A stretch of DNA of 64,000 nucleotides from Escherichia coli (lineage in GTDB: Bacteria; Pseudomonadota; Gammaproteobacteria; Enterobacterales; Enterobacteriaceae). The stretch lies in the NCBI RefSeq assembly GCF_003790525.1, contig NZ_CP033635.1. One strand, written 5' to 3'. The translations under genes were made by a program, and so were the position numbers. Positions 11,634 through 52,326 of this stretch are shown here, piece by piece (position 1 is the first letter of the stretch; every line of letters starts with the position of its first letter). Below the pieces are notes generated by a model. That model was not told where the DNA came from. It searched no databases and was given only the letters and a program-made list of their open reading frames with translations.

Positions 11634-11680
11634 TGCCCCAAATGATTGAGCTTGTTTAATGACTGTGACCGGCTCTGAAT

Positions 11681-11712: not shown

Positions 11713-11718
11713 ATGAAA

Positions 11719-14746: not shown

Positions 14747-14767
14747 TCGGTAAGATACTTTGTGAGA

Positions 14768-14793
14768 AGGGCCGCGAAAGCGGCCCTTTTTTT
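14768..14793. terminator. tktA intrinsic terminator (bidirectional, abuts SPFH gene stop)
   Basis: gggccgc-gaaa-gcggccc followed by ttttttt. Confidence 0.7.
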
Positions 14794-15700: not shown

Positions 15701-16077
15701 GACAATCTTCCTTGAGTAAAGTGTGGGAATATGTCACATGAGATGAGGAGAAAACAGCCGACAGGTGAGAATTCAGAATCTATAAAGGGGTATAGCGAAA
15801 AAACATTGCTTTAAAAAAGTATGTTTTCGGACATTCAATAAATAAATGGCGATATGCATCACAAATACAACAATAATCAAAATGTTGATTTTGTGATAAA
15901 CGTAACAAATACAAAGTTGACTTTAAAAATATCAACTTCATGTTGTTATTATTTAAGGTTTTATTATTTTTGTTCATGGGGTTTTTCTTCTCGCGTACCC
16001 AATTGCTTTCATTAAACCGCACGAGTATTTTATTTTTACCGCCGGACGGTACCCTAAAAATAAAATAAGGATAATTT

Positions 16078-22081: not shown

Positions 22082-22752
22082 AGTGGCTGGAGCGCTCCGT
22101 TTTGCAATTGCCACGCTTGCTGGCAGTAGTTCAGGAAAGGTGTACGATGACGTTCAAAAAGAATAATCAGCGAACCACGTTCAAGCGCCCAGTGTTGTAA
22201 GCGCTGCAACAGCATTTCGCAGGCCTGCGGCGTCAGGCGGCTAAAGGCTTCATCAAGAATTAAGAGCTTTGGCTGCATCGCGATGGCGCAGGCGATGACC
22301 ACACGCTGTGTCTCTCCACCGGAGAGTGTTGCCGGGTGACGATGGCGCAACGGCTGGCACTCGGTCAGAGTCAGGGCGGCATCAATCCGCGCCATAATCT
22401 CCTCTTCAGCAAGACACAGATTTTCTGGCCCAAAGGCAACTTTTTCTTCCACGCTAAAGGTACAGCCGGAGAGCTGCAAATAGGGCGATTGCTGAACGAG
22501 CTGGATGGTGGCGGATTGTTCATTAAGCGGGATATGCCCAATGGGCGTACCGAGAAGCGTCCCCGTGCCGGTTATCTCTCCTGGCAGAAAGTCCGGATAC
22601 CAGCCCGCCATCAGCTGTGCCAGCGTACTTTTGCCACTGCCGTTGTCACCAAAGATGGCGACCATCCCCGGTTTGACATAGTGAAAGTCATAACAGAACG
22701 GAGGATGCGTTGAGTGTGTCGGGCAATAGCGAAACTGTTCTAACGTAACCAT
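22075..22752 (-). CDS. ABC-type ATPase, ECF-transporter energizing subunit (EcfA-like)
   Basis: Walker A GDNGSGKST, canonical signature LSGGETQR, Walker B LLILDEA; start could be 22758 or 22752. Confidence 0.75.
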   Translation of the reverse strand: MVTLEQFRYCPTHSTHPPFCYDFHYVKPGMVAIFGDNGSGKSTLAQLMAGWYPDFLPGEITGTGTLLGTPIGHIPLNEQSATIQLVQQSPYLQLSGCTFSVEEKVAFGPENLCLAEEEIMARIDAALTLTECQPLRHRHPATLSGGETQRVVIACAIAMQPKLLILDEAFSRLTPQACEMLLQRLQHWALERGSLIILFERHRTPFLNYCQQAWQLQNGALQPLC

Positions 22753-23447
22753 ATCCACGCTCCGAATTCAGCCAGCATTAGCAAGATCATGGCGTAACGT
22801 GCTACGCGTTGTAGGGTGCTATCGGCTGGTGCCCATAACGTAGTGCGCCTATTGTTGATTCGAAATGCCCGCATATCCAGCGCCGCACCACGGACAGCCA
22901 GATCGTTAAGCGCATTGTGTGTTAGCGGAATAATTAGCGCGGGCATCGCGCGTAAACGCTGATACCAGCCTTCATCAAGCGGCACGCCGCGGGCGCGCTG
23001 CGCTTCATGAATAATCGCTAATTGCCGTTTTAACTGCTCAACGACCAACAACGGCCCGGCGAACAGATAAGCGACGCCCGGCGGCAGGCGAGAAGCAAAC
23101 AAAGCGCGGATAAAACGTTGCACTGGGACGTACTGCATCCACAACTGCGAGGTTGAAACAATCGCCAGAATCCGCAACCAGAGCGTAATAGCATGCGTCC
23201 ACCGTTCTGGCGAGCGTGGCGTGCCGCTTAGCCATTCTATCAGCCAGCCACCGTGTACCAGCCACAGTCCAGCCCCCAGCGAGAACATCAGCCAGACGAC
23301 ATATTTTGCCCGCCGCCGCGTGGCCTTTAGCGCAATAAGGCAGAAAAAGGTCGCCGCGCTATAGACTGGCAATATTGTCTGTGTGGGCAGGATAAGCGTG
23401 GTGTAGGCCGCCAGCGCCCACAGCGTTAATGAGGTAAACGGATGCAT
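22740..23447 (-). CDS. ECF transporter transmembrane T component (CbiQ/EcfT-like)
   Basis: Polytopic 235-aa protein with Ala-Arg-Gly-type coupling motifs (EAQRARGV; LAVRGAALD); ATG directly follows stop of upstream gene. Confidence 0.65.
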   Translation of the reverse strand: MHPFTSLTLWALAAYTTLILPTQTILPVYSAATFFCLIALKATRRRAKYVVWLMFSLGAGLWLVHGGWLIEWLSGTPRSPERWTHAITLWLRILAIVSTSQLWMQYVPVQRFIRALFASRLPPGVAYLFAGPLLVVEQLKRQLAIIHEAQRARGVPLDEGWYQRLRAMPALIIPLTHNALNDLAVRGAALDMRAFRINNRRTTLWAPADSTLQRVARYAMILLMLAEFGAWIWLR

Positions 23448-24026
23448 TTAGCGCACGGCTGCCATTGCCGGAAAATGGCGCGTGGTGCGAATCGGCAGCT
23501 GACGCAGTAAAAGCCAGACAATCACCGCTGTAAGAATTTTATCGACCAGGTTTGCGCCTATCACCGTAATCGCCACCGACTCCACCAGGTTTTGCCCCAT
23601 AGAGTGCATCCAGGCAACGAACAAATCGGCTCCGCTACCGGTGACACCGCCGAACAGCGCAGTACGCAGCGGTACAGCGACGACCGTTACCGCAAGCGTA
23701 ATAATCACGCCGCTGACAACGACTTTTGGCAGGGTGCGGAACCAACCCGCTCGCGCCAGCCAACCGGCGACCAGGCCGATGACCATCGCCACGGGCGCAA
23801 ATGCGGCGGCGATCGGGTCGGTCAGCAATCCCCAGAGTAAATTGGTCAGTAAGCCGGTCAGCATCCCGATCACCGGACCAAGCAGTACCGCGCTAATAAG
23901 TGTGCCGACGGAGTCGAGAAATATAGGTAATTTGACCATGCTGGCCAGTTGCCCGCCGATCATATTGATGGCGATAGATATAACGATCAACACCAGCGCC
24001 TGACTGGAAAAGTGGCGACGCGCCAT
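23448..24026 (-). CDS. small integral membrane protein, putative ECF substrate-capture S component
   Basis: About 190 aa, 5-6 predicted TM helices, sits first in transporter gene order; start chosen at MARRHFSSQ (ORF extends to 24125). Confidence 0.55.
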   Translation of the reverse strand: MARRHFSSQALVLIVISIAINMIGGQLASMVKLPIFLDSVGTLISAVLLGPVIGMLTGLLTNLLWGLLTDPIAAAFAPVAMVIGLVAGWLARAGWFRTLPKVVVSGVIITLAVTVVAVPLRTALFGGVTGSGADLFVAWMHSMGQNLVESVAITVIGANLVDKILTAVIVWLLLRQLPIRTTRHFPAMAAVR

Positions 24027-24048
24027 AAGAAAACCTCTCTGAAAATAG

Positions 24049-24480
24049 TTAGTTAACGGGGGAAATATGCAACTCGTCGTAACCAGAAAGCGCGCAAGGC
24101 TGGCGGCTAAACGCCAGTTCCTCAAGGCAGCCGATCACCAGTTCAAGCGTGGTCCGCACGGTACAGCCGGGCATCATATGACCGCCAAGCATCGTGCCGT
24201 GTGGATCGGAAACGCAGAGATGAAGATGTTCACCACTCTGTTCCAGCGTGCCGTTCAATGCGATGACTTCGAACTTACCGCTTAGTAGGGCAGTGTTTTC
24301 TTGCCCGGCATAGCGTAAGGCGACGTCAGTCAGACTGCCGGTACAACCTGCAATCCACGCGGCGTGAAGTTGTTGTTGCTGCGCGAAGGCGCGTAATTGG
24401 GAGAGAACTTCCTGCCCGGGGAGCAGGCGCAGCGCGTAAAAACGTGCGGAGGAAGAATATGGGTAGGGCAATGTCATCAT
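24049..24480 (-). CDS. DUF296/PPC-domain-like protein (143 aa) of unknown function, first gene of the cluster
   Basis: 143-aa ORF; family assignment from recollection of PPC-domain proteins, not verified. Confidence 0.5.
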   Translation of the reverse strand: MMTLPYPYSSSARFYALRLLPGQEVLSQLRAFAQQQQLHAAWIAGCTGSLTDVALRYAGQENTALLSGKFEVIALNGTLEQSGEHLHLCVSDPHGTMLGGHMMPGCTVRTTLELVIGCLEELAFSRQPCALSGYDELHISPVN

Positions 24481-24608
24481 TGGAGTACTCCGAAACTCGG
24501 ACGTATTGCGGATAATATCGACGCTGCATCAGTCATATTCTGATATAAGTCAGGGTTTGTGACGGCACAACGAAAAGATTTTGCTACGCTTATTCGTGAT
24601 TCTGCAAA

Positions 24609-24624
24609 GTGGAATAAATTCCAC
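24609..24624. promoter_or_regulatory. inverted repeat GTGGAA-N4-TTCCAC in divergent intergenic region, with a further copy of the motif at 24690..24699
   Basis: gtggaataaattccac at 24609..24624; ttttattccac at 24689..24699 is the same motif inverted; lies between the DUF296/ECF cluster and epd. Confidence 0.3.
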
Positions 24625-24851
24625 AGGGGCGGGGCTGAAAACGTGACGTAAGTCAGATAATTGTCTTCTTTGACTGGACAATCATTCCTTTTATTCCACG
24701 TTTCGCTTATCCTAGCTGAAGCGTTTCAGTCGATTAAATGTTCGACAATTAACCAATCAGTCGCAGTTTGCGACAGGTAAGGTTTCCCCGGACGATTTGC
24801 TGGATTACTCTGTCTGGCAAATTTGCTCAGGGAAAACCTTGCAGGAGATCT

Positions 24852-38623: not shown

Positions 38624-39005
38624 TGCTGTTGTCTGCTCCTGGTAAATGCTTTTTCCTGCACTATGACACAATTTTGTGTCAGGTTGCATATACCGAAGCC
38701 GTCGGCGGGTAACATTTGTATCAATGGTTAAACGCGCAGCTTAAAAGATCAGGGATTTGCGCTATTGCATTTCGCTTAGCGACTTCGCGCCCTGGTTATG
38801 TTGAATGGCGTGGCGTTATTGCCTCTGTTCGCACCGTGGAGCGGCATACCCAGACCGTTGTATGCTTTATTTGCCGGGCGAAAGGGGATGCCCGCCATTG
38901 CGCGATATTTTATGGATGAGTTAACCACGCGGCTTGCCAACGGGGTCTGAATCGCTTTTTTTGTATATAATGCGTGTGAAATTTCATACCACAGGCGAAA
39001 CGATC

Positions 39006-39665
39006 ATGACCCAGGATGAATTGAAAAAAGCAGTAGGATGGGCGGCACTTCAGTATGTTCAGCCCGGCACCATTGTTGGTGTAGGTACAGGTTCCACCGC
39101 CGCACACTTTATTGACGCGCTCGGTACAATGAAAGGCCAGATTGAAGGGGCCGTTTCCAGTTCAGATGCTTCCACTGAAAAACTGAAAAGCCTCGGCATT
39201 CACGTTTTTGATCTCAACGAAGTCGACAGCCTTGGCATCTACGTTGATGGCGCAGATGAAATCAACGGCCACATGCAAATGATCAAAGGCGGCGGTGCGG
39301 CGCTGACCCGTGAAAAAATCATTGCTTCGGTTGCGGAAAAATTTATCTGTATTGCAGACGCTTCTAAGCAGGTTGATATTCTGGGCAAATTCCCGCTGCC
39401 AGTAGAAGTTATCCCGATGGCACGTAGTGCAGTGGCGCGCCAGCTGGTGAAACTGGGCGGTCGTCCGGAATACCGTCAGGGCGTGGTGACCGATAACGGC
39501 AACGTGATCCTCGACGTCCACGGCATGGAAATCCTTGACCCGATAGCGATGGAAAACGCCATAAATGCGATTCCTGGCGTGGTGACTGTTGGCTTGTTTG
39601 CTAACCGTGGCGCGGACGTTGCGCTGATTGGCACACCTGACGGTGTCAAAACCATTGTGAAATGA
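39006..39665 (+). CDS. rpiA: ribose-5-phosphate isomerase A
   Basis: ORF 38934..39665; [39 protein letters not shown] matches RpiA. Confidence 0.95.
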
Positions 39666-39920
39666 TCTGACGGGGGAACCTCCCCCGTTAAAAAAATTCT
39701 CTTCATTAAATTTGGTGACATGTGTCACGTTTTTACCTGGCTATTGTCGATTGCTCTAAATAAACCCTCTAAACCAGCATATTCATCCAAGAAATACCTT
39801 TGCGTGATATTTCCTCAACATCGCGACGCAAACGTTCATATTGCCGCAATATTATTTTTTGATATGTTGAAAGGCGGATGCAAATCCGCACACAACATTT
39901 CAAAAGACAGGATTGGGTAA

Positions 39921-41153
39921 ATGGCAAAGGTATCGCTGGAGAAAGACAAGATTAAGTTTCTGCTGGTAGAAGGCGTGCACCAAAAGGCGCTTGAAAGCCT
40001 TCGTGCAGCGGGTTACACCAACATCGAATTTCACAAAGGCGCGCTGGATGATGAACAATTAAAAGAATCCATCCGCGATGCCCACTTCATCGGCCTGCGA
40101 TCCCGTACCCATCTGACTGAAGACGTGATCAACGCCGCAGAAAAACTGGTCGCTATTGGCTGTTTCTGTATCGGAACAAACCAGGTTGATCTGGATGCGG
40201 CGGCAAAACGCGGTATCCCGGTATTTAACGCACCGTTCTCAAATACGCGCTCTGTTGCGGAGCTGGTGATTGGCGAACTGCTGCTGCTATTGCGCGGCGT
40301 GCCGGAAGCCAATGCTAAAGCGCACCGTGGCGTGTGGAACAAACTGGCGGCGGGTTCTTTTGAAGCGCGCGGCAAAAAGCTGGGTATCATCGGCTATGGT
40401 CATATTGGTACTCAATTGGGCATTCTGGCTGAATCGCTGGGAATGTATGTTTACTTTTATGATATTGAAAACAAACTGCCGCTGGGCAACGCCACTCAGG
40501 TACAGCATCTTTCTGACCTGCTGAATATGAGCGATGTGGTGAGTCTGCATGTACCAGAGAATCCGTCCACCAAAAATATGATGAGTGCGAAAGAGATTTC
40601 ACTGATGAAGCCCGGCTCGCTGCTGATTAATGCTTCGCGCGGTACTGTGGTGGATATTCCGGCGCTGTGTGACGCGCTGGCGAGCAAACATCTGGCGGGG
40701 GCGGCAATCGACGTATTCCCGACGGAACCGGCAACCAATAGCGATCCATTTACCTCTCCGCTGTGTGAATTCGACAACGTCCTTCTGACGCCACACATTG
40801 GCGGTTCGACTCAGGAAGCGCAGGAGAATATCGGCCTGGAAGTTGCGGGTAAATTGATCAAGTATTCTGACAATGGCTCAACGCTCTCTGCGGTGAACTT
40901 CCCGGAAGTCTCGCTGCCACTGCACGGTGGGCGTCGTCTGATGCACATCCACGAAAACCGTCCGGGCGTGCTAACTGCGCTCAACAAAATTTTTGCCGAG
41001 CAGGGCGTCAACATCGCCGCGCAATATCTGCAAACTTCCGCCCAGATGGGTTATGTAGTTATTGATATTGAAGCCGACGAAGACGTTGCCGAAAAAGCTC
41101 TGCAGGCAATGAAAGCTATTCCGGGTACCATTCGCGCCCGTCTGCTGTACTAA
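39921..41153 (+). CDS. serA: D-3-phosphoglycerate dehydrogenase
   Basis: 410-aa ORF MAKVSLEKDKIKFLLVEGVHQKALESLRAAGYTNIEFH matches SerA. Confidence 0.95.
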   Translation: MAKVSLEKDKIKFLLVEGVHQKALESLRAAGYTNIEFHKGALDDEQLKESIRDAHFIGLRSRTHLTEDVINAAEKLVAIGCFCIGTNQVDLDAAAKRGIPVFNAPFSNTRSVAELVIGELLLLLRGVPEANAKAHRGVWNKLAAGSFEARGKKLGIIGYGHIGTQLGILAESLGMYVYFYDIENKLPLGNATQVQHLSDLLNMSDVVSLHVPENPSTKNMMSAKEISLMKPGSLLINASRGTVVDIPALCDALASKHLAGAAIDVFPTEPATNSDPFTSPLCEFDNVLLTPHIGGSTQEAQENIGLEVAGKLIKYSDNGSTLSAVNFPEVSLPLHGGRRLMHIHENRPGVLTALNKIFAEQGVNIAAQYLQTSAQMGYVVIDIEADEDVAEKALQAMKAIPGTIRARLLY

Positions 41154-41172
41154 TTCCCCTTCTCTGAAAATT

Positions 41173-41204
41173 AACGGGCAGGTCACTGACTTGCCCGTTT
41201 TTTT
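41173..41204. terminator. serA intrinsic terminator (possibly bidirectional)
   Basis: aacgggcaggtcactgacttgcccgtt followed by ttttttt. Confidence 0.7.
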
Positions 41205-41334
41205 ATCCCTTCTCCACACCGTTGCCGCATTGCGCATTCTACTTTGCGAGTCTGCTCCAGAAAATAAATCAAAGTCAGATCAATGCGTTGTGTTTATTTA
41301 ATGGGGATTTACGATGGCAGGGCAGCATGGGGCT

Positions 41335-41480
41335 GTAACGGTAAAGCCCTCACCGAAGCGAGGGCTTGAAGGAGAAGGGTTATGATGCGACTTGTCATCA
41401 TACTGATTGTACTGTTACTCATAAGTTTCCCAGCTTATTAACAGTCAGTCTCAGGGGAGGAGTCATCCTCCCTTACCCTT
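41335..41480 (-). ncRNA. sibC: SibC (RygC) antisense sRNA, antitoxin to ibsC; ends approximate
   Basis: Antisense to ibsC; candidate minus-strand promoter TTGACA-N17-TAATTT around 41488..41516; 3' end not resolved. Confidence 0.4.
41382..41441 (+). CDS. ibsC: type I toxin, Ibs family small hydrophobic peptide (19 aa)
   Basis: Hand translation: MMRLVIILIVLLLISFPAY, stop TAA; SD ggagaagggtt upstream; in serA-fau intergenic region where K-12 carries ibsC/sibC. Confidence 0.7.
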   Translation: MMRLVIILIVLLLISFPAY

Positions 41481-41541
41481 ACTCACTAAATTAGGTTAAA
41501 GAATCAACGATGTCAATCAGGGCGATGCAGGTGTGTCGCCC

Positions 41542-42144
41542 TTACCACTCCCAGACTTTCGACGGTGTAACCACCGCAGGAAGTGGGATATCCCACTCTT
41601 CAACGGGAAGTTTTTCCACCAACTGACAATCATGCGCATAACCCACCGGTTGCATTTTATAGTGCTGCCAGTTTTGTAAGGTCCGATCATAAAAACCACC
41701 GCCCATTCCCAGGCGCTGGCCGTACTCATCAAAGGCGACCAGCGGTGTGATCAACACGTCTAATCGGGAAAGGGGTAGCACGTCACGCACATCCAGTTTT
41801 GGCTCATGGATCTTCAACCTGTTCATCACCAGTTCGCTTTGCGGATGGTAATTCAGGAACAGCAAGTTACCGGCACTAAAGGGATGCAAAACTGGAAGAT
41901 ATACGCGCTTACCGGCGCGCCAGAGTTGTTCTATGAGTGGCTGGGTGTCGAGTTCGCCATCAAAAGAGAGGAATACAGCGACCGTATGTGCCATCACCAC
42001 CGGGGGATAAGTCATCATCCGGGTAGCGGCTTGTTGACCCATTTCCTGCTGTTGTTCCGGCGTTAACGCACGACGACGTTGCCGAATCATTTTGCGGATT
42101 TCTTGTCGGGATAATGTCAGTGGAAGTTCTGGTAGTTGCGTCAT
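41542..42144 (-). CDS. fau: 5-formyltetrahydrofolate cyclo-ligase
   Basis: ORF 41542..42288 contains MIRQRRRALTPEQQQEMGQQAATRMMTYPPVVMAHTVAVFLSFDGELDTQ (YgfA); start ambiguous: Met at 42144 (200 aa) or 42090 (182 aa); upstream part of ORF overlaps 6S RNA. Confidence 0.8.
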   Translation of the reverse strand: MTQLPELPLTLSRQEIRKMIRQRRRALTPEQQQEMGQQAATRMMTYPPVVMAHTVAVFLSFDGELDTQPLIEQLWRAGKRVYLPVLHPFSAGNLLFLNYHPQSELVMNRLKIHEPKLDVRDVLPLSRLDVLITPLVAFDEYGQRLGMGGGFYDRTLQNWQHYKMQPVGYAHDCQLVEKLPVEEWDIPLPAVVTPSKVWEW

Positions 42145-42162
42145 GGCTGGTGCCAGATAAGA

Positions 42163-42348
42163 AGGGAATCTCCGAGATGCCGCCGCAGGCTGTAACCCTT
42201 GAACCCTTGGTTCAAGGTGAATGTGTCGTCGCAGTTTTAAGGCTTCTCGGACGGACCGAGCATGCTCACCAACCGCGGAGCGCCACATTCTTGTGGTATG
42301 AAATATCGGCTCAGGGGACTGGCCCGCTTGCGAACATCTCAGAGAAAT
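42163..42348 (-). ncRNA. ssrS: 6S RNA
   Basis: Minus strand reads AUUUCUCUGAGAUGUUCGCAAGCGGGCCAGUCCCCUGAGCCGAUAUUUCAUACCACAAGAAUGUGGCGCUCCGCGG...GGAGAUUCCCU, matching remembered 6S RNA; directly upstream of fau. Confidence 0.9.
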
Positions 42349-42389
42349 TTTGTCTTCACGGTTACTCTACCACAGTAAACCGAAAAGTG

Positions 42390-42785
<396 letters not shown>

Positions 42786-42886
42786 CTATAGCTACCCTGA
42801 TGAGAAGAGACAAGCCCTTTTCTGGTCCACCAGGGCCCAAAGTGGTAGCATATCATGAATATTCCTCCCTTTGACGACGAATGCTT

Positions 42887-43465
42887 ATGTCTATACAGAA
42901 CGAAATGCCTGGTTACAACGAAATGAACCAGTATCTGAACCAACAAGGGACGGGTCTGACCCCTGCTGAGATGCATGGTTTAATCAGTGGGATGATATGT
43001 GGCGGTAACGATGACAGCTCATGGCTGCCGCTACTTCACGACCTGACGAACGAAGGCATGGCTTTCGGTCATGAGCTGGCACAGGCACTGCGTAAAATGC
43101 ACTCTGCCACCAGCGATGCCCTGCAGGATGACGGCTTCCTTTTTCAGCTTTATCTGCCTGATGGCGATGATGTCAGCGTTTTCGATCGGGCTGATGCGCT
43201 GGCAGGTTGGGTCAATCACTTCCTGCTTGGTCTTGGCGTTACGCAACCGAAGCTGGACAAAGTGACCGGAGAAACCGGTGAAGCCATCGACGATCTGCGT
43301 AACATCGCGCAGCTGGGCTACGACGAAGACGAAGATCAGGAAGAGCTTGAAATGTCGCTTGAAGAGATCATCGAATACGTTCGTGTTGCCGCGTTGTTAT
43401 GCCACGACACCTTTACTCATCCGCAACCGACCGCGCCAGAAGTACAAAAACCGACTCTACACTAA
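42887..43465 (+). CDS. ygfB: UPF0149 family protein YgfB
   Basis: ORF 42881..43465; [40 protein letters not shown] matches YgfB. Confidence 0.85.
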
Positions 43466-43490
43466 AAACAAAAAACGTAAGGAGAGTGTT

Positions 43491-44816
43491 ATGAGTGAGA
43501 TATCCCGGCAAGAGTTTCAGCGTCGCCGTCAGGCCCTGGTGGAGCAAATGCAACCCGGCAGCGCCGCGCTGATTTTTGCTGCACCAGAAGTAACACGTAG
43601 CGCCGACAGCGAATACCCCTATCGTCAGAACAGTGACTTCTGGTACTTCACCGGCTTTAACGAACCGGAAGCGGTGCTGGTGCTGATTAAAAGCGACGAC
43701 ACTCATAACCACAGCGTTTTGTTTAACCGCGTTCGCGACCTGACGGCAGAGATCTGGTTTGGTCGTCGCTTAGGCCAGGATGCCGCGCCAGAGAAACTGG
43801 GCGTTGACCGCGCACTGGCATTCAGTGAAATCAATCAGCAACTTTATCAACTACTTAACGGCCTGGATGTGGTTTACCATGCTCAGGGCGAATATGCATA
43901 TGCTGATGAAATCGTGAACAGCGCGCTGGAAAAGTTGCGTAAAGGCTCGCGACAGAATCTCACTGCCCCGGCTACGATGATCGACTGGCGTCCCATTGTT
44001 CATGAAATGCGCCTGTTCAAATCCCCAGAAGAGATTGCCGTACTTCGCCGCGCGGGGGAAATTACCGCCCTGGCGCATACCCGGGCGATGGAAAAATGCC
44101 GTCCGGGAATGTTCGAGTACCATCTGGAAGGCGAAATTCACCACGAATTTAACCGCCACGGTGCGCGCTATCCGTCCTATAACACCATTGTCGGCAGCGG
44201 TGAAAACGGCTGCATTCTGCACTACACCGAAAACGAGTGTGAAATGCGCGACGGTGACCTGGTGTTGATTGACGCGGGTTGTGAATACAAAGGTTACGCG
44301 GGCGATATTACCCGCACCTTCCCGGTCAACGGCAAATTCACCCAAGCCCAGCGTGAAATCTACGACATTGTGCTGGAGTCTCTTGAAACCAGCCTGCGGC
44401 TGTATCGTCCGGGAACTTCCATTCAGGAAGTCACTGGTGAAGTGGTGCGCATCATGGTTAGCGGCCTGGTAAAACTCGGCATCCTGAAAGGTGATGTTGA
44501 TGAACTGATCGCTCAGAACGCCCATCGTCCTTTCTTTATGCATGGCCTTAGCCACTGGTTAGGACTGGATGTCCATGACGTTGGCGTTTATGGCCAGGAT
44601 CGCTCGCGCATTCTGGAACCGGGCATGGTACTGACCGTAGAGCCGGGGCTGTATATTGCGCCGGATGCAGAAGTGCCAGAACAATATCGCGGTATCGGCA
44701 TTCGTATTGAAGACGACATTGTGATTACCGAAACCGGCAACGAAAACCTCACCGCCAGCGTGGTGAAAAAGCCGGAAGAAATCGAAGCGTTGATGGCTGC
44801 TGCGAGAAAGCAATGA
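43491..44816 (+). CDS. pepP: Xaa-Pro aminopeptidase (aminopeptidase P II)
   Basis: ORF 43278..44816; MSEISRQEFQRRRQALVEQMQPGSAALIFAAPEV matches PepP; SD aaggagag upstream of ATG 43491. Confidence 0.95.
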   Translation: MSEISRQEFQRRRQALVEQMQPGSAALIFAAPEVTRSADSEYPYRQNSDFWYFTGFNEPEAVLVLIKSDDTHNHSVLFNRVRDLTAEIWFGRRLGQDAAPEKLGVDRALAFSEINQQLYQLLNGLDVVYHAQGEYAYADEIVNSALEKLRKGSRQNLTAPATMIDWRPIVHEMRLFKSPEEIAVLRRAGEITALAHTRAMEKCRPGMFEYHLEGEIHHEFNRHGARYPSYNTIVGSGENGCILHYTENECEMRDGDLVLIDAGCEYKGYAGDITRTFPVNGKFTQAQREIYDIVLESLETSLRLYRPGTSIQEVTGEVVRIMVSGLVKLGILKGDVDELIAQNAHRPFFMHGLSHWLGLDVHDVGVYGQDRSRILEPGMVLTVEPGLYIAPDAEVPEQYRGIGIRIEDDIVITETGNENLTASVVKKPEEIEALMAAARKQ

Positions 44817-45991
44817 GCGTAATCATCGTCGGTGGCGGCATGGCGGGCGCGACGCTGGCGCTGGCTATTTCCCGGTTAAGTCACGGGGCGCTGCCGGTAC
44901 ATTTGATTGAAGCGACTGCGCCAGAGTCACATGCTCATCCGGGCTTTGATGGACGGGCTATTGCGCTGGCGGCGGGCACTTGTCAGCAACTGGCGCGCAT
45001 CGGCGTCTGGCAATCTCTGGCTGATTGCGCAACCGCCATCACCAGCGTGCATGTCAGCGATCGTGGTCATGCCGGATTCGTCACCCTCGCCGCAGAAGAT
45101 TACCAACTGGCGGCGCTGGGACAGGTTGTCGAATTACACAATGTCGGGCAACGGCTGTTTGCATTGCTGCGCAAAGCACCTGGTGTAACGCTGCATTGCC
45201 CTGATCGCGTGGCTAACGTTGCCCGTGCTCAGAGTCACGTTGAAGTGACGCTGGAGAGTGGCGAGACGCTGACGGGCTGCGTGCTGGTAGCCGCTGATGG
45301 CACCCATTCAGCGTTAGCCACTGTGTGCGGCGTTGACTGGCAGCAGGAGCCTTACGAACAACTGGCCGTGATTGCCAACGTTGCGACTTCCGTTGCGCAC
45401 GAAGGCCGCGCTTTTGAACGCTTCACGAAACATGGCCCGCTGGCGATGTTGCCGATGTCTGACGGACGCTGTTCGCTGGTCTGGTGTCATCCACTGGAAC
45501 GGCGCGAAGAGGTGCTGTCGTGGAGCGACGAGAAGTTTTGCCGTGAACTCCAGTCTGCCTTTGGCTGGCGACTGGGGCAAATTACCCACGCCGGTAAACG
45601 CAGTGCTTATCCGCTGGCATTAACCCGCGCCGCCAGACCGATTACCCATCGCACTGTGCTGGTGGGCAATGCGGCGCAAACTCTGCACCCCATCGCCGGG
45701 CAAGGGTTCAACCTCGGTATGCGTGATGTGATGAGCCTTGCAGAAACCCTGACTCAGGCGCAGGAGCGCGGAGAAGACATGGGTGATTACGGCGTATTGT
45801 GCCGTTATCAGCAGCGTCGACAGAGCGATCGCGAAGTAACCATCGGCGTCACGGACAGCCTTGTACATCTTTTTGCCAACCGTTGGACCCCGCTGGTTGT
45901 CGGGCGCAACATCGGGCTGATGACGATGGAATTATTTACCCCGGCACGCGATGTGCTGGCGCAGCGCACCCTCGGTTGGGTGGCGCGTTGA
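44813..45991 (+). CDS. ubiH: 2-octaprenyl-6-methoxyphenol hydroxylase (FAD monooxygenase)
   Basis: 392-aa ORF MSVIIVGGGMAGATLALAIS...; start overlaps pepP stop. Confidence 0.92.
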   Translation: MSVIIVGGGMAGATLALAISRLSHGALPVHLIEATAPESHAHPGFDGRAIALAAGTCQQLARIGVWQSLADCATAITSVHVSDRGHAGFVTLAAEDYQLAALGQVVELHNVGQRLFALLRKAPGVTLHCPDRVANVARAQSHVEVTLESGETLTGCVLVAADGTHSALATVCGVDWQQEPYEQLAVIANVATSVAHEGRAFERFTKHGPLAMLPMSDGRCSLVWCHPLERREEVLSWSDEKFCRELQSAFGWRLGQITHAGKRSAYPLALTRAARPITHRTVLVGNAAQTLHPIAGQGFNLGMRDVMSLAETLTQAQERGEDMGDYGVLCRYQQRRQSDREVTIGVTDSLVHLFANRWTPLVVGRNIGLMTMELFTPARDVLAQRTLGWVAR

Positions 45992-46013
45992 AGGCGGTTT
46001 TAAGGAATAAACA

Positions 46014-47216
46014 ATGCAAAGTGTTGATGTAGCCATTGTTGGTGGCGGCATGGTGGGGCTGGCGGTTGCCTGCGGCTTACAGGGGAGCGGCTTACGCGTT
46101 GCTGTACTGGAGCAGCGCGTACCGGAACCTCTGGCGGCGGATGCACCACCACAACTGCGCGTTTCGGCTATCAATGCCGCCAGCGAAAAATTACTCACCC
46201 GTCTTGGCGTCTGGCAGGACATTCTCTCTCGTAGGGCCAGCTGTTATCACGGTATGGAAGTGTGGGACAAAGACAGTTTTGGTCACATCTCGTTTGACGA
46301 TCAAAGCATGGGCTATAGCCATCTTGGGCATATCGTTGAAAACTCAGTGATTCACTACGCGCTGTGGAACAAAGCGCAGCAGTCGTCAGATATCACTCTG
46401 TTGGCCCCCGCAGAATTACAGCAGGTCGCCTGGGGAGAAAATGAAACCTTCCTGACGTTGAAAGATGGCAGTATGTTAACGGCGCGTCTGGTGATTGGCG
46501 CGGACGGCGCTAATTCCTGGTTGCGCAACAAAGCAGATATTCCGCTGACTTTCTGGGATTATCAGCATCACGCGCTGGTAGCGACCATTCGCACGGAAGA
46601 ACCGCATGATGCGGTGGCGCGGCAGGTTTTCCATGGCGAAGGCATTCTGGCCTTTTTACCGCTTAGCGATCCGCATCTTTGCTCGATTGTCTGGTCACTG
46701 TCGTCAGAGGAAGCGCAGCGGATGCAGCAGGCAAGTGAAGACGAATTTAATCGCGCGTTAAATATCGCTTTTGATAATCGCCTGGGCTTATGCAAGGTTG
46801 AGAGCGCGCGTCAGGTGTTCCCACTGACGGGGCGTTATGCGCGCCAGTTTGCCGCGCACCGTCTGGCGCTGGTGGGCGACGCCGCGCATACCATTCACCC
46901 GCTGGCGGGGCAGGGGGTAAATCTTGGCTTTATGGATGCTGCAGAGCTGATTGCTGAACTGAAACGGTTGCATCGTCAGGGTAAAGACATCGGGCAGTAC
47001 ATTTATCTGCGTCGCTATGAGAGTAGCCGCAAGCACAGTTCGGCGCTGATGCTGGCTGGTATGCAGGGATTCCGTGATCTGTTTTCCGGTACCAATCCGG
47101 CGAAAAAACTGCTGCGTGATATTGGTTTGAAACTGGCCGACACGCTTCCTGGCGTTAAACCACAACTCATCCGCCAGGCAATGGGATTAAACGATTTGCC
47201 TGAATGGCTGCGTTAA
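46014..47216 (+). CDS. ubiI: 2-octaprenylphenol hydroxylase (FAD monooxygenase)
   Basis: 400-aa ORF MQSVDVAIVGGGMVGLAVACGLQGSGLRVAVLEQ matches UbiI (VisC). Confidence 0.92.
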   Translation: MQSVDVAIVGGGMVGLAVACGLQGSGLRVAVLEQRVPEPLAADAPPQLRVSAINAASEKLLTRLGVWQDILSRRASCYHGMEVWDKDSFGHISFDDQSMGYSHLGHIVENSVIHYALWNKAQQSSDITLLAPAELQQVAWGENETFLTLKDGSMLTARLVIGADGANSWLRNKADIPLTFWDYQHHALVATIRTEEPHDAVARQVFHGEGILAFLPLSDPHLCSIVWSLSSEEAQRMQQASEDEFNRALNIAFDNRLGLCKVESARQVFPLTGRYARQFAAHRLALVGDAAHTIHPLAGQGVNLGFMDAAELIAELKRLHRQGKDIGQYIYLRRYESSRKHSSALMLAGMQGFRDLFSGTNPAKKLLRDIGLKLADTLPGVKPQLIRQAMGLNDLPEWLR

Positions 47217-47662
47217 AAATTTCTCTTCTGTTGTTTATTTGATACCCATCACACTTTCATCTCCCGGTTTTTTCGCCGGGAGATTTTCCTCATTTGAAAT
47301 AAACTAATTTCACCTCCGTTTTCGCATTATATTTTCTAATGCTATGATTTTTTGATTTAGTGTTTTTTGACATTTTTTTAGTTCTTAATATTGCCTTATT
47401 CAAATTAACTTTCTAATGGCATCATCTTTATATAGAAACTAGAGTGTTTTTTGGTTTTTTATTCTGTCGCGATTTTGGCGTTTTTTAACCATAAGCTAAT
47501 GTGATGATCAATTTTACCTTATGGTTAACAGTCTGTTTCGGTGGTAAGTTCAGGCAAAAGAGAACGATTGCGTTGGGGACCGGGAGTGGCTCCGATGCTG
47601 GGTTTCGTGGTGATAATTTCACCATGAAAAGTTGTCAGCCCCGCTTATTCAATGAGGACAAG

Positions 47663-48757
47663 ATGGCACAACAGACTCCTTTGTACGAACAACACACGCT
47701 TTGCGGCGCTCGCATGGTGGATTTCCACGGCTGGATGATGCCGCTGCATTACGGTTCGCAAATCGACGAACATCATGCGGTACGTACCGATGCCGGAATG
47801 TTTGATGTGTCACATATGACCATCGTCGATCTCCGCGGCAGCCGCACCCGGGAGTTTCTGCGTTATCTGCTGGCGAACGATGTGGCGAAGCTCACCAAAA
47901 GCGGCAAAGCCCTTTACTCGGGGATGTTGAATGCCTCTGGCGGTGTGATAGATGACCTCATCGTCTACTACTTTACTGAAGATTTCTTCCGCCTCGTTGT
48001 TAACTCCGCCACCCGCGAAAAAGACCTCTCCTGGATTACCCAACACGCTGAACCTTTCGGCATCGAAATTACCGTTCGTGATGACCTTTCCATGATCGCC
48101 GTACAAGGGCCGAATGCGCAGGCAAAAGCTGCCACACTGTTTAATGATGCTCAGCGTCAGGCGGTGGAAGGGATGAAACCGTTCTTTGGCGTGCAGGCGG
48201 GCGATCTGTTTATTGCCACCACTGGTTATACCGGTGAAGCGGGCTATGAAATTGCGCTGCCCAATGAAAAAGCGGCCGATTTCTGGCGTGCGCTGGTGGA
48301 AGCGGGTGTTAAGCCATGTGGCTTGGGCGCGCGTGACACGCTGCGTCTGGAAGCGGGCATGAATCTTTATGGTCAGGAGATGGACGAAACTATTTCTCCT
48401 TTAGCCGCCAACATGGGCTGGACTATCGCCTGGGAACCGGCAGATCGTGACTTTATCGGTCGTGAAGCCCTGGAAGTGCAGCGTGAGCATGGTACAGAAA
48501 AACTGGTTGGTCTGGTGATGACCGAAAAAGGCGTGCTGCGTAATGAACTGCCGGTACGCTTTACCGATGCGCAGGGCAACCAGCATGAAGGCATTATCAC
48601 CAGCGGTACTTTCTCCCCGACGCTGGGTTACAGCATTGCGCTGGCGCGCGTGCCGGAAGGTATTGGCGAAACGGCGATTGTGCAAATTCGCAACCGTGAA
48701 ATGCCGGTTAAAGTGACAAAACCTGTTTTTGTGCGTAACGGCAAAGCCGTCGCGTGA
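47663..48757 (+). CDS. gcvT: glycine cleavage system T protein (aminomethyltransferase)
   Basis: ORF 47501..48757; [41 protein letters not shown] matches GcvT. Confidence 0.95.
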
Positions 48758-48780
48758 TTTACTTTTTTGGAGATTGATTG

Positions 48781-49170
48781 ATGAGCAACGTACCAGCAGA
48801 ACTGAAATACAGCAAAGAACACGAATGGCTGCGTAAAGAAGCCGACGGCACTTACACCGTTGGTATTACCGAACATGCTCAGGAGCTGTTAGGCGATATG
48901 GTGTTTGTTGACCTGCCGGAAGTGGGCGCAACGGTTAGCGCGGGCGATGACTGCGCGGTTGCCGAATCAGTAAAAGCGGCGTCAGACATTTATGCGCCAG
49001 TAAGCGGTGAAATCGTGGCGGTAAACGACGCACTGAGCGATTCCCCGGAACTGGTGAACAGCGAACCGTATGCAGGTGGCTGGATCTTTAAAATCAAAGC
49101 CAGCGATGAAAGCGAACTGGAATCACTGCTGGATGCGACCGCATACGAAGCATTGTTAGAAGACGAGTAA
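48781..49170 (+). CDS. gcvH: glycine cleavage system H protein (lipoyl carrier)
   Basis: [34 protein letters not shown] matches GcvH. Confidence 0.95.
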
Positions 49171-49287
49171 CGGCTTTATTCCTCTTCTGCGGGAGAGGAT
49201 CAGGGTGAGGAAATTTACACCTCACCCTCACTCTCTTCGCAAGGAGAGAGGTTCACAATTCACTGCACGTTTCAGGAACCATCGCTC

Positions 49288-52161
49288 ATGACACAGACGT
49301 TAAGCCAGCTTGAAAATAGCGGCGCTTTTATTGAACGCCATATCGGACCGGACGCCGCGCAACAGCAAGAAATGCTGAATGCCGTTGGCGCACAATCGTT
49401 AAACGCGCTGACCGGCCAGATTGTACCGAAAGATATTCAGCTTGCGACCCCGCCGCAGGTTGGCGCACCGGCGACCGAATACGCCGCGCTGGCGGAACTC
49501 AAGGCTATTGCCAGTCGCAATAAACGCTTCACGTCTTACATCGGCATGGGTTACACCGCCGTGCAGTTACCGCCGGTTATCCTGCGTAACATGCTGGAAA
49601 ATCCGGGCTGGTATACCGCGTATACTCCGTATCAACCTGAAGTCTCGCAGGGCCGCCTTGAGGCACTGCTCAATTTCCAGCAGGTAACGCTGGATTTAAC
49701 CGGGCTGGATATGGCCTCTGCTTCTCTTCTTGACGAAGCCACCGCTGCCGCCGAAGCAATGGCGATGGCGAAACGCGTCAGCAAACTGAAAAATGCCAAC
49801 CGCTTCTTCGTGGCTTCCGATGTGCATCCGCAAACGCTGGATGTGGTCCGTACTCGTGCCGAAACCTTTGGTTTTGAAGTGATTGTCGATGATGCGCAAA
49901 AAGTGCTCGACCACCAGGACGTCTTCGGCGTGCTGTTACAGCAGGTTGGCACTACCGGTGAAATTCATGACTACACTGCGCTTATCAGCGAACTGAAATC
50001 ACGCAAAATTGTGGTCAGCGTCGCCGCCGATATTATGGCGCTGGTGCTGTTAACTGCGCCGGGTAAACAGGGCGCAGATATTGTCTTTGGTTCGGCGCAA
50101 CGCTTCGGCGTGCCGATGGGCTACGGTGGCCCACACGCGGCATTCTTTGCGGCGAAAGATGAATACAAACGCTCAATGCCGGGCCGTATTATCGGTGTAT
50201 CGAAAGATGCAGCTGGCAATACCGCGCTGCGCATGGCAATGCAGACTCGCGAGCAACATATTCGCCGTGAGAAAGCGAACTCCAACATTTGTACTTCCCA
50301 GGTACTGCTGGCAAACATCGCCAGCCTGTATGCCGTTTATCACGGTCCGGTTGGCCTGAAACGTATCGCTAACCGCATTCACCGTCTGACCGATATCCTG
50401 GCGGCAGGCCTGCAACAAAAAGGTCTGAAGCTGCGCCATGCGCACTATTTCGACACTCTGTGTGTGGAAGTGGCCGACAAGGCGGGCGTACTGGCGCGTG
50501 CCGAAGCGGCTGAAATCAACCTGCGTAGCGATATCCTGAACGCGGTGGGGATCACCCTTGATGAAACCACCACGCATGAAAACGTAATGCAGCTTTTCAG
50601 CGTACTACTGGGGGATAACCACGGGCTGGACATCGACACGCTGGACAAAGACGTGGCTCACGACAGCCGCTCTATCCAGCCTGCGATGCTGCGCGACGAT
50701 GAAATCCTCACCCATCCGGTGTTTAATCGCTACCACAGCGAAACCGAAATGATGCGCTATATGCACTCGCTGGAGCGTAAAGATCTGGCGCTGAATCAGG
50801 CGATGATCCCGCTGGGTTCCTGCACCATGAAACTGAACGCCGCCGCCGAGATGATCCCAATCACCTGGCCGGAATTTGCTGAACTGCACCCGTTTTGCCC
50901 GCCAGAACAGGCCGAAGGTTATCAGCAGATGATCGCGCAGCTGGCTGACTGGCTGGTGAAACTGACCGGTTACGACGCCGTTTGTATGCAGCCGAACTCC
51001 GGCGCACAGGGCGAATACGCGGGCCTGCTGGCGATTCGTCATTATCATGAAAGCCGCAACGAAGGGCATCGCGATATCTGCCTGATCCCGGCTTCTGCGC
51101 ACGGAACTAACCCCGCTTCTGCACATATGGCAGGAATGCAGGTGGTGGTTGTGGCGTGTGATAAAAATGGCAACATCGATCTGGCTGATCTGCGCGCGAA
51201 AGCGGAACAAGCGGGCGATAACCTCTCCTGTATCATGGTGACCTATCCTTCCACCCACGGCGTGTATGAAGAAACGATCCGTGAAGTGTGTGAAGTCGTG
51301 CATCAGTTCGGCGGTCAGGTTTACCTTGATGGCGCGAACATGAACGCCCAGGTCGGCATCACCTCACCGGGCTTTATTGGCGCGGACGTCTCGCACCTTA
51401 ACCTGCATAAAACTTTCTGCATTCCGCACGGTGGCGGCGGCCCTGGTATGGGACCGATCGGCGTGAAAGCGCATCTGGCACCGTTTGTGCCAGGTCATAG
51501 CGTGGTACAAATTGAAGGCATGTTAACCCGTCAGGGCGCGGTTTCTGCGGCACCGTTCGGTAGCGCATCCATTCTGCCAATCAGCTGGATGTACATCCGT
51601 ATGATGGGCGCAGAAGGGCTGAAAAAAGCAAGCCAGGTGGCAATTCTTAACGCCAACTATATTGCCAGCCGCCTGCAGGATGCTTTCCCGGTGCTGTATA
51701 CCGGTCGCGACGGTCGCGTGGCGCACGAATGTATTCTTGATATTCGTCCGCTGAAAGAAGAAACCGGCATCAGCGAACTGGATATTGCCAAGCGTCTGAT
51801 CGACTACGGTTTCCACGCGCCGACCATGTCATTCCCGGTGGCGGGTACGCTGATGGTTGAACCGACTGAATCTGAAAGCAAAGTGGAACTGGATCGCTTT
51901 ATCGACGCGATGCTGGCTATCCGCGCAGAAATTGACCAGGTGAAAGCCGGTGTCTGGCCGCTGGAAGATAACCCGCTGGTGAACGCGCCGCACATTCAGA
52001 GCGAACTGGTCGCCGAGTGGGCGCATCCGTACAGCCGTGAAGTTGCAGTATTCCCGGCAGGCGTGGCAGACAAATACTGGCCGACAGTGAAACGTCTGGA
52101 TGATGTTTACGGCGACCGTAACCTGTTCTGCTCCTGCGTACCGATTAGCGAATACCAGTAA
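49288..52161 (+). CDS. gcvP: glycine dehydrogenase (decarboxylating), P protein
   Basis: 957-aa [41 protein letters not shown] matches GcvP. Confidence 0.95.
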
Positions 52162-52184
52162 TTTACTGATTCGACTATCTTCTA

Positions 52185-52206
52185 AAGGCGCTTCGGCGCC
52201 TTTTTC
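52185..52206 (+). terminator. gcvP intrinsic terminator
   Basis: ggcgc-ttcg-gcgcc (UUCG tetraloop) followed by ttttt. Confidence 0.65.
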
Positions 52207-52326
52207 GCTTGTTAATAAAGTGCGCTTTGTGTGTTTCGGCTGAGGCGTAATATAAAATATTGCGAGCTCAATATATTAAAAGAGTGCCAGGCCTGATGAG
52301 CGGAGCACATCAGGCACATCGGCTAA

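What the first reader, a model, noticed from the sequence alone, without database searches (positions are those of the whole stretch)
41335..41480. Type I toxin-antitoxin pair ibsC/sibC between serA and fau
A 19-codon ORF (MMRLVIILIVLLLISFPAY) with a good SD lies in the convergent serA-fau intergenic region, matching the Ibs toxin family. A minus-strand promoter-like element (TTGACA-N17-TAATTT) would drive a fully complementary antisense RNA (SibC). I could not locate a canonical terminator for the antisense RNA, so its 3' end is uncertain.
Basis: partly seen in the sequence, partly recalled or inferred. Interest (0 to 1): 0.4.

Follow-up and report, generated by a model that had tools for sequence, protein, structure and literature searches.

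The report
Known E. coli sibC/ibsC toxin-antitoxin
This is the well-known E. coli ibsC/sibC locus, a 19-residue membrane toxin gene silenced by a fully overlapping antisense RNA, present here intact in the most common natural allele, so the finding is correct but ordinary.

Summary
The observation and the interpretation both hold. A 19-codon ORF (41382-41441, +; MMRLVIILIVLLLISFPAY) lies between serA and fau. Rfam SIB_RNA matches the opposite strand end to end (136.5 bits, cutoff 56). Ungapped alignment to E. coli K-12 MG1655 transfers the annotated 141-nt sibC (b4446) to window 41480->41340 (-), 136/141 identical. A 100%-identical genome annotates the ORF as ibsC, and the locus is in 5,425 of 5,426 complete E. 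coli genomes.

It fails a canonical scan because the U-tract is short, but the K-12 3' end falls 4 nt after it.

The only coding difference from K-12 is codon 17 (CCA Pro vs AGC Ser). This is SibC +49..+51 (UGG vs GCU), the same TRD1 triplet that Han et al. 2010 mutated to switch target specificity. It is a common dimorphism: 2,790 genomes carry this allele and 2,165 the K-12 one.

The mechanism (antisense pairing through TRD1 and TRD2, mRNA decay, membrane depolarisation by IbsC) is inferred from K-12 experiments, not tested here. Already known; low interest.

The parts
41511..41516 (-). sibC promoter -35 hexamer TTGACA (6/6 consensus)
   Evidence: Sequence. TTGAC is invariant in all six Sib promoters aligned. 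The full motif is unique in the window, 0.02 expected.
41488..41493 (-). sibC promoter -10 hexamer TAATTT (3/6 consensus; 17-nt spacer; 7 nt before the +1 A)
   Evidence: Sequence. Below the generic scan threshold. The position fits the K-12 annotated sibC 5' end transferred by alignment. One spacer SNP relative to K-12, at 41497 (A vs G).
41340..41480 (-). SibC antitoxin RNA, 141 nt, starting with A at 41480
   Evidence: K-12 sibC b4446 (3056851..3056991) mapped through the ungapped alignment A1. Rfam SIB_RNA 136.5 bits. MFE -55.3 kcal/mol, z = -4.9, same fold as K-12 SibC. The consensus fold of six Sib RNAs has 9 pairs with compensatory changes.
41413..41435 (-). TRD1 (SibC +46..+68, P5 stem-loop), complementary to ibsC codons 11-18. 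Contains the variable triplet +49..+51 (UGG here, GCU in K-12) at 41430-41432.
   Evidence: TRD1 limits are from Han et al. 2010 (PMC2943612), applied to the coordinates. The triplet lies in the predicted 8-nt loop.
41366..41382 (-). TRD2 (SibC +99..+115, P1 3' half plus single-stranded J1/7), complementary to the ibsC Shine-Dalgarno / translation initiation region. Identical to K-12.
   Evidence: Han et al. 2010. Their pairs C107/C109/C110 with G53/G51/G50 fall on window 41374/41372/41371. No difference from K-12 in this region.
41344..41367 (-). SibC P7 terminator hairpin AAGCCCUCGC-UUCG-GUGAGGGCUU, followed by UACC-3' (41343-41340)
   Evidence: Predicted 10-bp stem with a UUCG loop. The K-12 annotated 3' end is 4 nt after the stem. 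Han et al. call it the terminator stem. It is conserved with compensatory pairs in all paralogs. It is not called by the canonical terminator scan.
41382..41441 (+). ibsC ORF, 19 codons plus stop: MMRLVIILIVLLLISFPAY
   Evidence: Translation. Pfam Ibs_toxin 47.3 bits, profile 1-19/19. Annotated ibsC (WP_071525914.1) in the identical sequence of strain 203740. One substitution relative to K-12 IbsC, S17P.
41370..41374 (+). ibsC Shine-Dalgarno AGGAG, 7 nt upstream of the ATG
   Evidence: Sequence. It lies in the unpaired J2/3 segment of the predicted ibsC mRNA fold and is the TRD2 target.
41322..41480 (+). ibsC mRNA, about 159 nt (inferred extent)
   Evidence: Han et al. report a 159-nt ibsC mRNA with an 18-nt 5' overhang beyond the SibC 3' end: 41340-18 = 41322. 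Their G50/G51/G53 numbering fits only this start. The 3' end was predicted by length in that paper, not mapped. MFE -63.1 kcal/mol, z = -5.0.
41288..41315 (+). Putative ibsC promoter: TTGTGT (41288-41293), 16-nt spacer, TACGAT (41310-41315), 6 nt before the inferred start
   Evidence: My reading of the sequence. The region is identical to K-12, and ibsD/ibsE have similarly placed hexamers (TTGCGT ... AACAAT). It is weak (7/12) and not called by the scan. Han et al. state that conserved promoter elements precede the mapped starts, but their figure could not be read.
41173..41199 (+). serA intrinsic terminator (boundary of the locus, not part of the TA pair)
   Evidence: 12-bp stem followed by TTTTTAT, 20 nt after the serA stop.

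Best explanation
This is the chromosomal type I toxin-antitoxin pair ibsC/sibC of Escherichia coli, intact and in its usual place between serA and fau. The minus strand makes SibC, a 141-nt structured RNA (41480->41340), from a promoter with a perfect -35 and a weak -10. It ends at the P7 hairpin. The plus strand makes a roughly 159-nt ibsC mRNA (about 41322-41480) from a weak promoter. SibC is complementary to this mRNA over its whole length, covering the Shine-Dalgarno and all 19 codons. By analogy with K-12, SibC first contacts the mRNA through two independent single-stranded elements. TRD1, the P5 loop, pairs with codons 11-18. TRD2, the J1/7 segment, pairs with the ribosome-binding site. 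Pairing then spreads, translation is blocked, and the duplex is cut by RNase III and degraded. If SibC falls short, the hydrophobic peptide IbsC inserts in the inner membrane, collapses membrane potential and ATP, and stops growth.

Shown here: sequence identity, family membership, synteny, the predicted fold, the position of the ends by homology, and population frequency. Inferred from published K-12 and Salmonella experiments: transcription, repression, toxicity and the peptide's target.

The copy in this window carries the Pro17/UGG allele rather than the K-12 Ser17/GCU allele. The change sits in the TRD1 loop. It is matched on both strands by construction, so cognate pairing is unaffected.
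For: Rfam SIB_RNA, full model, 136.5 bits vs 56. Pfam Ibs_toxin, full profile, 47.3 bits vs 27. K-12 annotation of sibC b4446 and ibsC b4665 between fau and serA. Ungapped alignment with 136/141 identity in SibC and an identical ibsC upstream region. RefSeq ibsC annotation on a 100%-identical sequence. The locus is present in 5,425 of 5,426 complete E. coli genomes. The MFE fold is identical to K-12 SibC and all five differences lie in hairpin loops. 9 base pairs show compensatory changes across six Sib RNAs. The published numbering of TRD2/SD contacts and the 18-nt overhang fit the window coordinates exactly. Arg3 and Leu11, the positions required in Salmonella IbsA, are present. Pro at residue 17 is the native residue of K-12 IbsB and IbsE. 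K-12 evidence for SibC transcripts: PMC4447067 and PMC12956327. Repression via TRD1/TRD2: PMC2943612. Depolarisation and loss of viability on IbsC overexpression: review PMC8309996.
Against: Nothing in the sequence argues against it. Caveats follow. No expression data exist for this strain. The -10 hexamer is weak and the promoter scan did not call either promoter. The terminator lacks a canonical U-tract. The Pro17 variant of IbsC itself has not, in any paper I could read, been tested for toxicity. The primary papers (Fozo 2008; Mok 2010) were not available. NCBIfam returned no hit for the peptide. The Pfam test needed one extra N-terminal residue to reach the tool's 20-aa minimum.
Confidence: 0.96

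Rival explanations
1. The locus is a decayed or silenced copy. The S17P change, or the promoter spacer SNP at 41497, would have inactivated the toxin or the antitoxin, leaving a non-functional remnant that still scores against family models.
For: There is one amino-acid change in the C-terminal part, which the review of Mok et al. says is needed for toxicity (residues 6-19). There is one SNP in the sibC promoter spacer. Proline can break helices.
Against: The ORF, SD, both promoters' hexamers and every base-paired position of SibC are intact. This allele is the majority form, found in 2,790 of 5,426 genomes, which is not expected for a recent inactivating lesion. Pro17 is native in K-12 IbsE, annotated 'toxic peptide IbsE', and in IbsB. 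Alanine scanning of Salmonella IbsA found only residues 3 and 11 essential.
Confidence: 0.03
2. The main biological role of the minus-strand RNA is not antitoxin action. SibC would act chiefly in trans on other mRNAs or as a protein-binding or NAD-capped RNA, and the small ORF would be incidental.
For: In K-12, SibC is abundant, regulated by sigma-S, ppGpp and DksA, and largely NAD-capped in stationary phase. A ProQ study mentions Sib RNAs many times (not read). No physiological trigger for ibsC is established in the papers read.
Against: Complementarity is complete over SD and ORF. The peptide is conserved as a Pfam family and kept in frame in all five K-12 paralogs despite 66-83% RNA identity. 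Han et al. show direct, cognate-specific repression of ibsC by SibC. The two roles are not mutually exclusive.
Confidence: 0.04
3. Chance: a short hydrophobic ORF and a promoter-like motif happen to occur in an intergenic region.
For: 19-codon ORFs are frequent. 92 ORFs of 20 aa or more were listed in 5 kb around the site.
Against: Rfam E = 5e-28. Pfam E = 1.8e-12. 0.02 motif matches expected by chance. Fold z-scores are -4.9 and -5.0. The locus is conserved in 5,425 genomes.
Confidence: 0

Closest known systems
E. coli K-12 MG1655 sibC (b4446) / ibsC (b4665)
   Same: Same position between fau and serA, same orientation of both genes, same length (141 nt and 19 codons), 136/141 identical RNA, identical predicted fold, and identical TRD2, SD, P7 terminator and ibsC upstream region.
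   Different: There are five substitutions inside the RNA, all in loops: +17/+18 in the P2 loop, and +49..+51 in the P5/TRD1 loop (UGG vs GCU), which makes IbsC residue 17 Pro instead of Ser. There is also one SNP in the sibC promoter spacer.
E. coli K-12 sibD/ibsD and sibE/ibsE (yqiK-hldE intergenic region)
   Same: Same family and architecture, and the same +1 A. 81-83% RNA identity. IbsE also has Pro17.
   Different: A different locus. TRD1 differs from the window's SibC at 2 positions (SibD) or 4 positions (SibE). TRD2 also differs (Han et al. give C107UCCUUC113 in SibC vs UCCUUCUGU in SibD). The window allele is 2 mismatches closer to ibsD in TRD1 than K-12 SibC is.
Salmonella Typhimurium IbsA/SibA
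   Same: A 19-aa Ibs peptide with a basic residue at 3 and Leu at 11, reported to lower ATP and membrane potential.
   Different: A different species and paralog. Binding to Fo subunits a and b was shown only for Salmonella IbsA, in a preprint. Nothing here tests whether IbsC shares that target.
Other E. coli type I systems (hok/sok, ldr/rdl, tisB/istR-1, shoB/ohsC)
   Same: A small hydrophobic membrane toxin repressed post-transcriptionally by an antisense RNA.
   Different: In ibs/sib the antitoxin spans the entire functional mRNA, both TIR and ORF, and uses two independent recognition domains. IstR-1 and OhsC are not cis-encoded.

Membership tests
Rfam RF00113 SIB_RNA | Covariance-model score at or above the curated gathering score, over the full model | tested here: met
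   136.5 bits vs 56, model positions 1-147/147, not truncated.
Rfam RF00113 SIB_RNA | Conserved multi-stem fold (P1 closing stem, internal hairpins, 3' terminator hairpin) | tested here: met
   The MFE has a P1 closing stem, P2, P5 and P6 hairpins nested inside it, and the 3' P7 hairpin. It is identical to K-12 SibC, z = -4.9. 43 consensus pairs, 9 with compensatory changes across six Sib RNAs.
Pfam PF13956 Ibs_toxin | Profile score at or above the gathering score over the 19-residue profile | tested here: met
   47.3 bits vs 27, profile 1-19/19, E = 1.8e-12. The query carried one extra upstream residue (V, from GTT 41379-41381) only to satisfy the 20-aa input minimum. NCBIfam gave no hit.
Pfam PF13956 Ibs_toxin | 18-19 residue, highly hydrophobic peptide with a basic residue at position 3 and Leu at position 11 | tested here: met
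   MMRLVIILIVLLLISFPAY has R3 and L11. The criteria come from PMC2943612 and the Salmonella IbsA preprint.
sibC/ibsC orthologue (as opposed to sibA, B, D or E) | Synteny between serA and fau (ygfA), next to ssrS | tested here: met
   The order rpiA-serA-ibsC-fau-ssrS-zapA is the same in the window, in strain 203740 and in K-12. The window is collinear with K-12 across the block 38825-52205.
sibC/ibsC orthologue (as opposed to sibA, B, D or E) | Highest identity to K-12 SibC among the five paralogs | tested here: met
   0.96 identity to SibC, against 0.83 (D), 0.81 (E), 0.73 (A) and 0.66 (B).
Type I toxin-antitoxin system | Antitoxin is an RNA that base-pairs with the toxin mRNA; here it is cis-encoded and overlaps SD and ORF | tested here: met
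   SibC at 41340-41480 (-) covers the SD at 41370-41374 and the ORF at 41382-41441 (+).
Type I toxin-antitoxin system | Overexpression of the peptide is toxic | not testable with these tools
   Reported for K-12 IbsC (Ser17) via the review PMC8309996. The Pro17 form was not found tested in any paper I could read.
Type I toxin-antitoxin system | The RNA represses toxin expression and rescues cells | not testable with these tools
   Shown for K-12 SibC/ibsC by co-transformation and gel shift (PMC2943612). Here it is inferred from complete complementarity and the identical fold.
Canonical intrinsic (Rho-independent) terminator | G+C-rich hairpin followed by a U-rich tract (at least 5 U in 8) | tested here: not met
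   The hairpin is present (10 bp, UUCG loop), but the tail is UUUACCGUU and the scan did not call it. It works like a terminator, since the K-12 3' end falls 4 nt after the stem, but it is not a canonical one.
Sigma-70 consensus promoter (sibC) | At least 4/6 match in each hexamer with a 16-18 nt spacer | tested here: not met
   -35 is 6/6, -10 is 3/6, spacer 17. It is still the likely promoter: the motif is unique in the window, the -35 is invariant in six paralogs, and the annotated +1 lies 7 nt downstream. K-12 ChIP-seq puts a sigma-S polymerase peak at sibC.

The most novel reading that the evidence does not exclude
The GCU/UGG dimorphism at SibC +49..+51 (IbsC Ser17/Pro17) may be a functionally meaningful natural variant of the TRD1 specificity determinant rather than neutral drift. 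Three adjacent bases differ at exactly the triplet whose engineered change to the SibD sequence (UGC) allowed SibC to pair with ibsD through TRD1. Both alleles are held at high frequency (51% and 40% of complete genomes). The allele in this window leaves only 2 TRD1 mismatches to ibsD instead of 4. It could therefore permit partial SibC-ibsD cross-repression, or alter IbsC potency, in about half of E. coli strains. In that case K-12 would not represent the species for Sib/Ibs cross-talk.
Probability: 0.12. Interest if true: 0.3.

Novelty: already known. Interest (0 to 1): 0.08.

Why it matters
For a genome scan this is a positive control. A reader working from raw sequence alone correctly recognised a 19-codon toxin gene and its antisense RNA, and placed the RNA's 5' end on the annotated base. 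Biologically nothing new is added to the sibC/ibsC system. The small additions are practical. They are exact coordinates for every functional element in this allele and identification of the non-canonical terminator. There is also the observation that the laboratory K-12 allele of the TRD1 discriminator triplet is the minority form among sequenced E. coli. That last point may be worth remembering when K-12 results on Sib specificity or IbsC toxicity are generalised.

Tried and rejected
(1) The first translation, at 41383, was out of frame. The ATG is at 41382.

(2) The generic promoter/terminator scan found neither promoter nor the SibC terminator. I did not take this as absence, because homology-transferred ends and family conservation place them.

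(3) I asked whether the 3-nt change arose by gene conversion from a paralog. No K-12 paralog has the window's AAGCTGGGAAAC context: SibD has CTGCG, SibE TCGGG, SibA CCTGG and SibB CGGGG. A simple conversion from a K-12-like paralog is therefore not supported. The Rfam consensus reads GCuGgGaAaC like the window, which hints that UGG is the family-typical state. I did not fetch outgroup species.

(4) I asked whether a genome with this sibC allele has co-varying sibD/sibE. In strain 203740 both are identical to K-12, so there is no co-variation.

(5) The primary papers, Fozo 2008 (PMC2597788) and Mok 2010 (PMC3009890), are not held. Their content is cited only through Han 2010 and the 2021 review.

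(6) NCBIfam returned no model for the peptide.

The identification was already decisive, and a 19-aa peptide is unsuited to them.

(8) The first fetch for the sibD/E region of strain 203740 (365-415 kb) missed it. The second fetch found it.

Full report
**Observation.** The window between serA (39921-41153, +) and fau (from 41542, -) contains the ORF ATGATGCGACTT...GCTTATTAA at 41382-41441 (+). It translates to MMRLVIILIVLLLISFPAY. An AGGAG Shine-Dalgarno lies at 41370-41374. This exact pattern occurs once in the 64-kb window, against 0.02 expected. A generic sigma-70 scan does not call it, because the -10 matches consensus at only 3 of 6 positions.

**Identity.** A scan of the whole window against Rfam gave two hits: 6S RNA at 42165-42348 (-) and SIB_RNA (RF00113, type antitoxin) at 41516-41366 (-). 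The SIB_RNA hit covers the full model at 136.5 bits against a gathering score of 56, E = 5e-28. The Rfam model includes the promoter. The peptide matches Pfam Ibs_toxin PF13956 over the whole 19-position profile (47.3 bits, cutoff 27). One upstream residue was added only to reach the tool's 20-aa minimum. NCBIfam gave nothing.

The 388-bp intergenic region is found in 5,425 of 5,426 complete E. coli genomes. In a 100%-identical genome (strain 203740) RefSeq annotates the ORF as ibsC, WP_071525914.1, flanked by serA and fau-ssrS-zapA. K-12 MG1655 annotates sibC (b4446, 3056851..3056991) and ibsC (b4665) in the same place.

**Boundaries.** The window and K-12 intergenic regions align without gaps. 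This places SibC at window 41480 (5' A) to 41340, 141 nt, 136/141 identical. The TAATTT hexamer ends 7 nt upstream of that +1.

Han et al. 2010 (PMC2943612) report a 159-nt ibsC mRNA whose 5' end overhangs the SibC 3' end by 18 nt. That gives 41322-41480. Their statement that G50, G51 and G53 of ibsC mRNA pair with C110, C109 and C107 of SibC fits window positions 41371, 41372 and 41374 only with this start. That is an independent check on both coordinate transfers.

Upstream I read a weak promoter: TTGTGT (41288-41293), 16 nt, TACGAT (41310-41315). It is identical in K-12 and paralleled by TTGCGT...AACAAT before ibsD and ibsE. The hexamer assignment is my inference.

SibC +114..+137 (window 41367-41344) folds as AAGCCCUCGC-UUCG-GUGAGGGCUU, a 10-bp stem with a UUCG tetraloop, followed by UACC-3'. 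Han et al. name this the P7 transcription terminator stem. It is conserved with compensatory pairs in all five K-12 paralogs. The K-12 3' end lies 4 nt after it. The U-tract is only UUU, two of which are in the stem, so it fails the canonical scan.

**Structure.** SibC from the window folds to -55.3 kcal/mol (z = -4.9 against shuffles). It has a P1 closing stem (+1..+6 with +101..+106), the P2, P5 and P6 hairpins, a single-stranded J1/7 and then P7. The dot-bracket string is identical to that of K-12 SibC. The consensus fold of six Sib RNAs has 43 pairs, 9 with compensatory double changes. The ibsC mRNA folds to -63.1 kcal/mol (z = -5.0). The AGGAG is unpaired and the AUGAUG is sequestered in the hairpin formed with GUCAUCAU of codons 5-7.

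**Mechanism.** Everything below is inferred from published experiments in K-12 and Salmonella. Only the sequence prerequisites were checked here.
- SibC is made from its own promoter. In K-12 it is seen on northern blots, bound by sigma-S polymerase, stimulated by ppGpp/DksA, and largely NAD-capped in stationary phase because it starts with A. The +1 A is conserved here.
- SibC recognises ibsC mRNA through two independent domains. TRD1 is +46..+68 (the P5 loop, window 41413-41435, opposite codons 11-18). TRD2 is +99..+115 (J1/7, window 41366-41382, opposite the ribosome-binding site).
- Pairing then spreads, and RNase III cuts the duplex in vitro and the mRNA is degraded.
- Unrepressed IbsC depolarises the membrane within minutes and reduces viability (review PMC8309996).
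- A preprint reports that Salmonella IbsA binds Fo subunits a and b and needs residues 3 and 11. The window's peptide has Arg3 and Leu11.

**What differs from K-12.** Five bases differ inside SibC, all in predicted loops: +17/+18 in the P2 loop, and +49..+51 in the P5/TRD1 loop. The latter is ibsC codon 17, CCA (Pro) here and AGC (Ser) in K-12. Codon 17 is the most variable position among the K-12 paralogs: Ser, Ala, Pro, Gln and Pro. Han et al. changed exactly G49-C50-U51 to the SibD sequence UGC, so that the mutated TRD1 could base-pair with ibsD, when they tested target specificity.

To count alleles I used 40-nt megablast queries centred on the codon, so that every 28-nt seed must span it. 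The window allele occurs in 2,790 of 5,426 genomes and the K-12 allele in 2,165. The window therefore carries the majority form of a common dimorphism.

Against non-cognate targets, the window's TRD1 has 2 mismatches to ibsD (4 for K-12 SibC) and 4 to ibsE (6 for K-12). TRD2 is unchanged from K-12. In strain 203740, which shares this sibC allele, SibD and SibE are identical to K-12. Discrimination is thus probably retained with a narrower margin. Whether that matters is untested.

**Context.** The window is E. coli chromosome, collinear with K-12 3,091,909->3,033,308 at 97-99% identity, with a few accessory insertions and one deletion. A 24-kb stretch around the locus is 100% identical to strains PEC403, e1-39 and several CUVET isolates. 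The sibC/ibsC region lies inside an uninterrupted block.

**Verdict.** This is the already-described sibC/ibsC type I toxin-antitoxin pair: intact, in its canonical location and in its commonest allele. Interest is low. The only mildly non-trivial point is the population dimorphism at the TRD1 discriminator triplet.

Noticed in passing
window 41430-41432 (ibsC codon 17; SibC +49..+51): Three adjacent bases differ from K-12 (CCA vs AGC; Pro vs Ser) at the TRD1 triplet that Han et al. mutated to swap SibC specificity. The exact 40-mer of this allele is in 2,790 of 5,426 complete genomes and the K-12 allele in 2,165. About 470 genomes match neither.
   Followed up: partly
window 42165-42348 (-): 6S RNA (ssrS), Rfam RF00013, 139.8 bits, full length, immediately upstream of fau as in K-12. 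The longest ORF reading through fau (41542-42288, 248 aa) overlaps it, so that ORF start is not credible. RefSeq annotates fau as 603 nt in strain 203740 and 549 nt in K-12.
   Followed up: partly
window 41520-41541 (-): The hairpin GGGCGAcacacctgcaTCGCCC lies directly after the fau stop codon and abuts the sibC -35 (TTGACA starts 3 nt later). It has no U-tract. If fau transcripts read through it they would extend into sibC, which might relate to the second, longer SibC band reported in K-12 northern blots (PMC4447067).
   Followed up: no
window 21364-24642: A segment of about 3.3 kb, absent from K-12, between yggC and epd. It encodes two ABC ATPases, a CbiQ-like and an ECF substrate-specific component (an ECF-type transporter), plus a PCC-domain protein, all on the minus strand.
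   Followed up: partly
window 14748-15999: A segment of about 1.25 kb, absent from K-12, between tktA and cmtB. It carries a 302-aa SPFH/Band-7 family ORF (14792-15700, -).
   Followed up: partly
window 9922-11720: A segment of about 1.8 kb, absent from K-12, between speB and loiP. It carries a 520-aa ORF (10071-11633, +) whose C-terminal half is a DUF1266 domain.
   Followed up: partly
window 7988-8922: A segment of about 0.9 kb between speA and speB, where K-12 has about 60 bp. It contains a 243-aa ORF (8133-8864, +) with no Pfam match at E <= 0.001.
   Followed up: no
window 52206-52326: About 1 kb of K-12 that carries ygfF (3045101-3046124) is replaced here by about 120 bp, so ygfF appears to be absent from this strain.
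   Followed up: no
hit H30, NZ_CP033605.1 (E. coli O157:H7 strain TR01): In this genome only 45% of the serA-fau intergenic query aligns and no ibsC is annotated under the match. One of the 5,426 genomes has no match at all. These are rare cases where the locus seems disrupted or lost.
   Followed up: no
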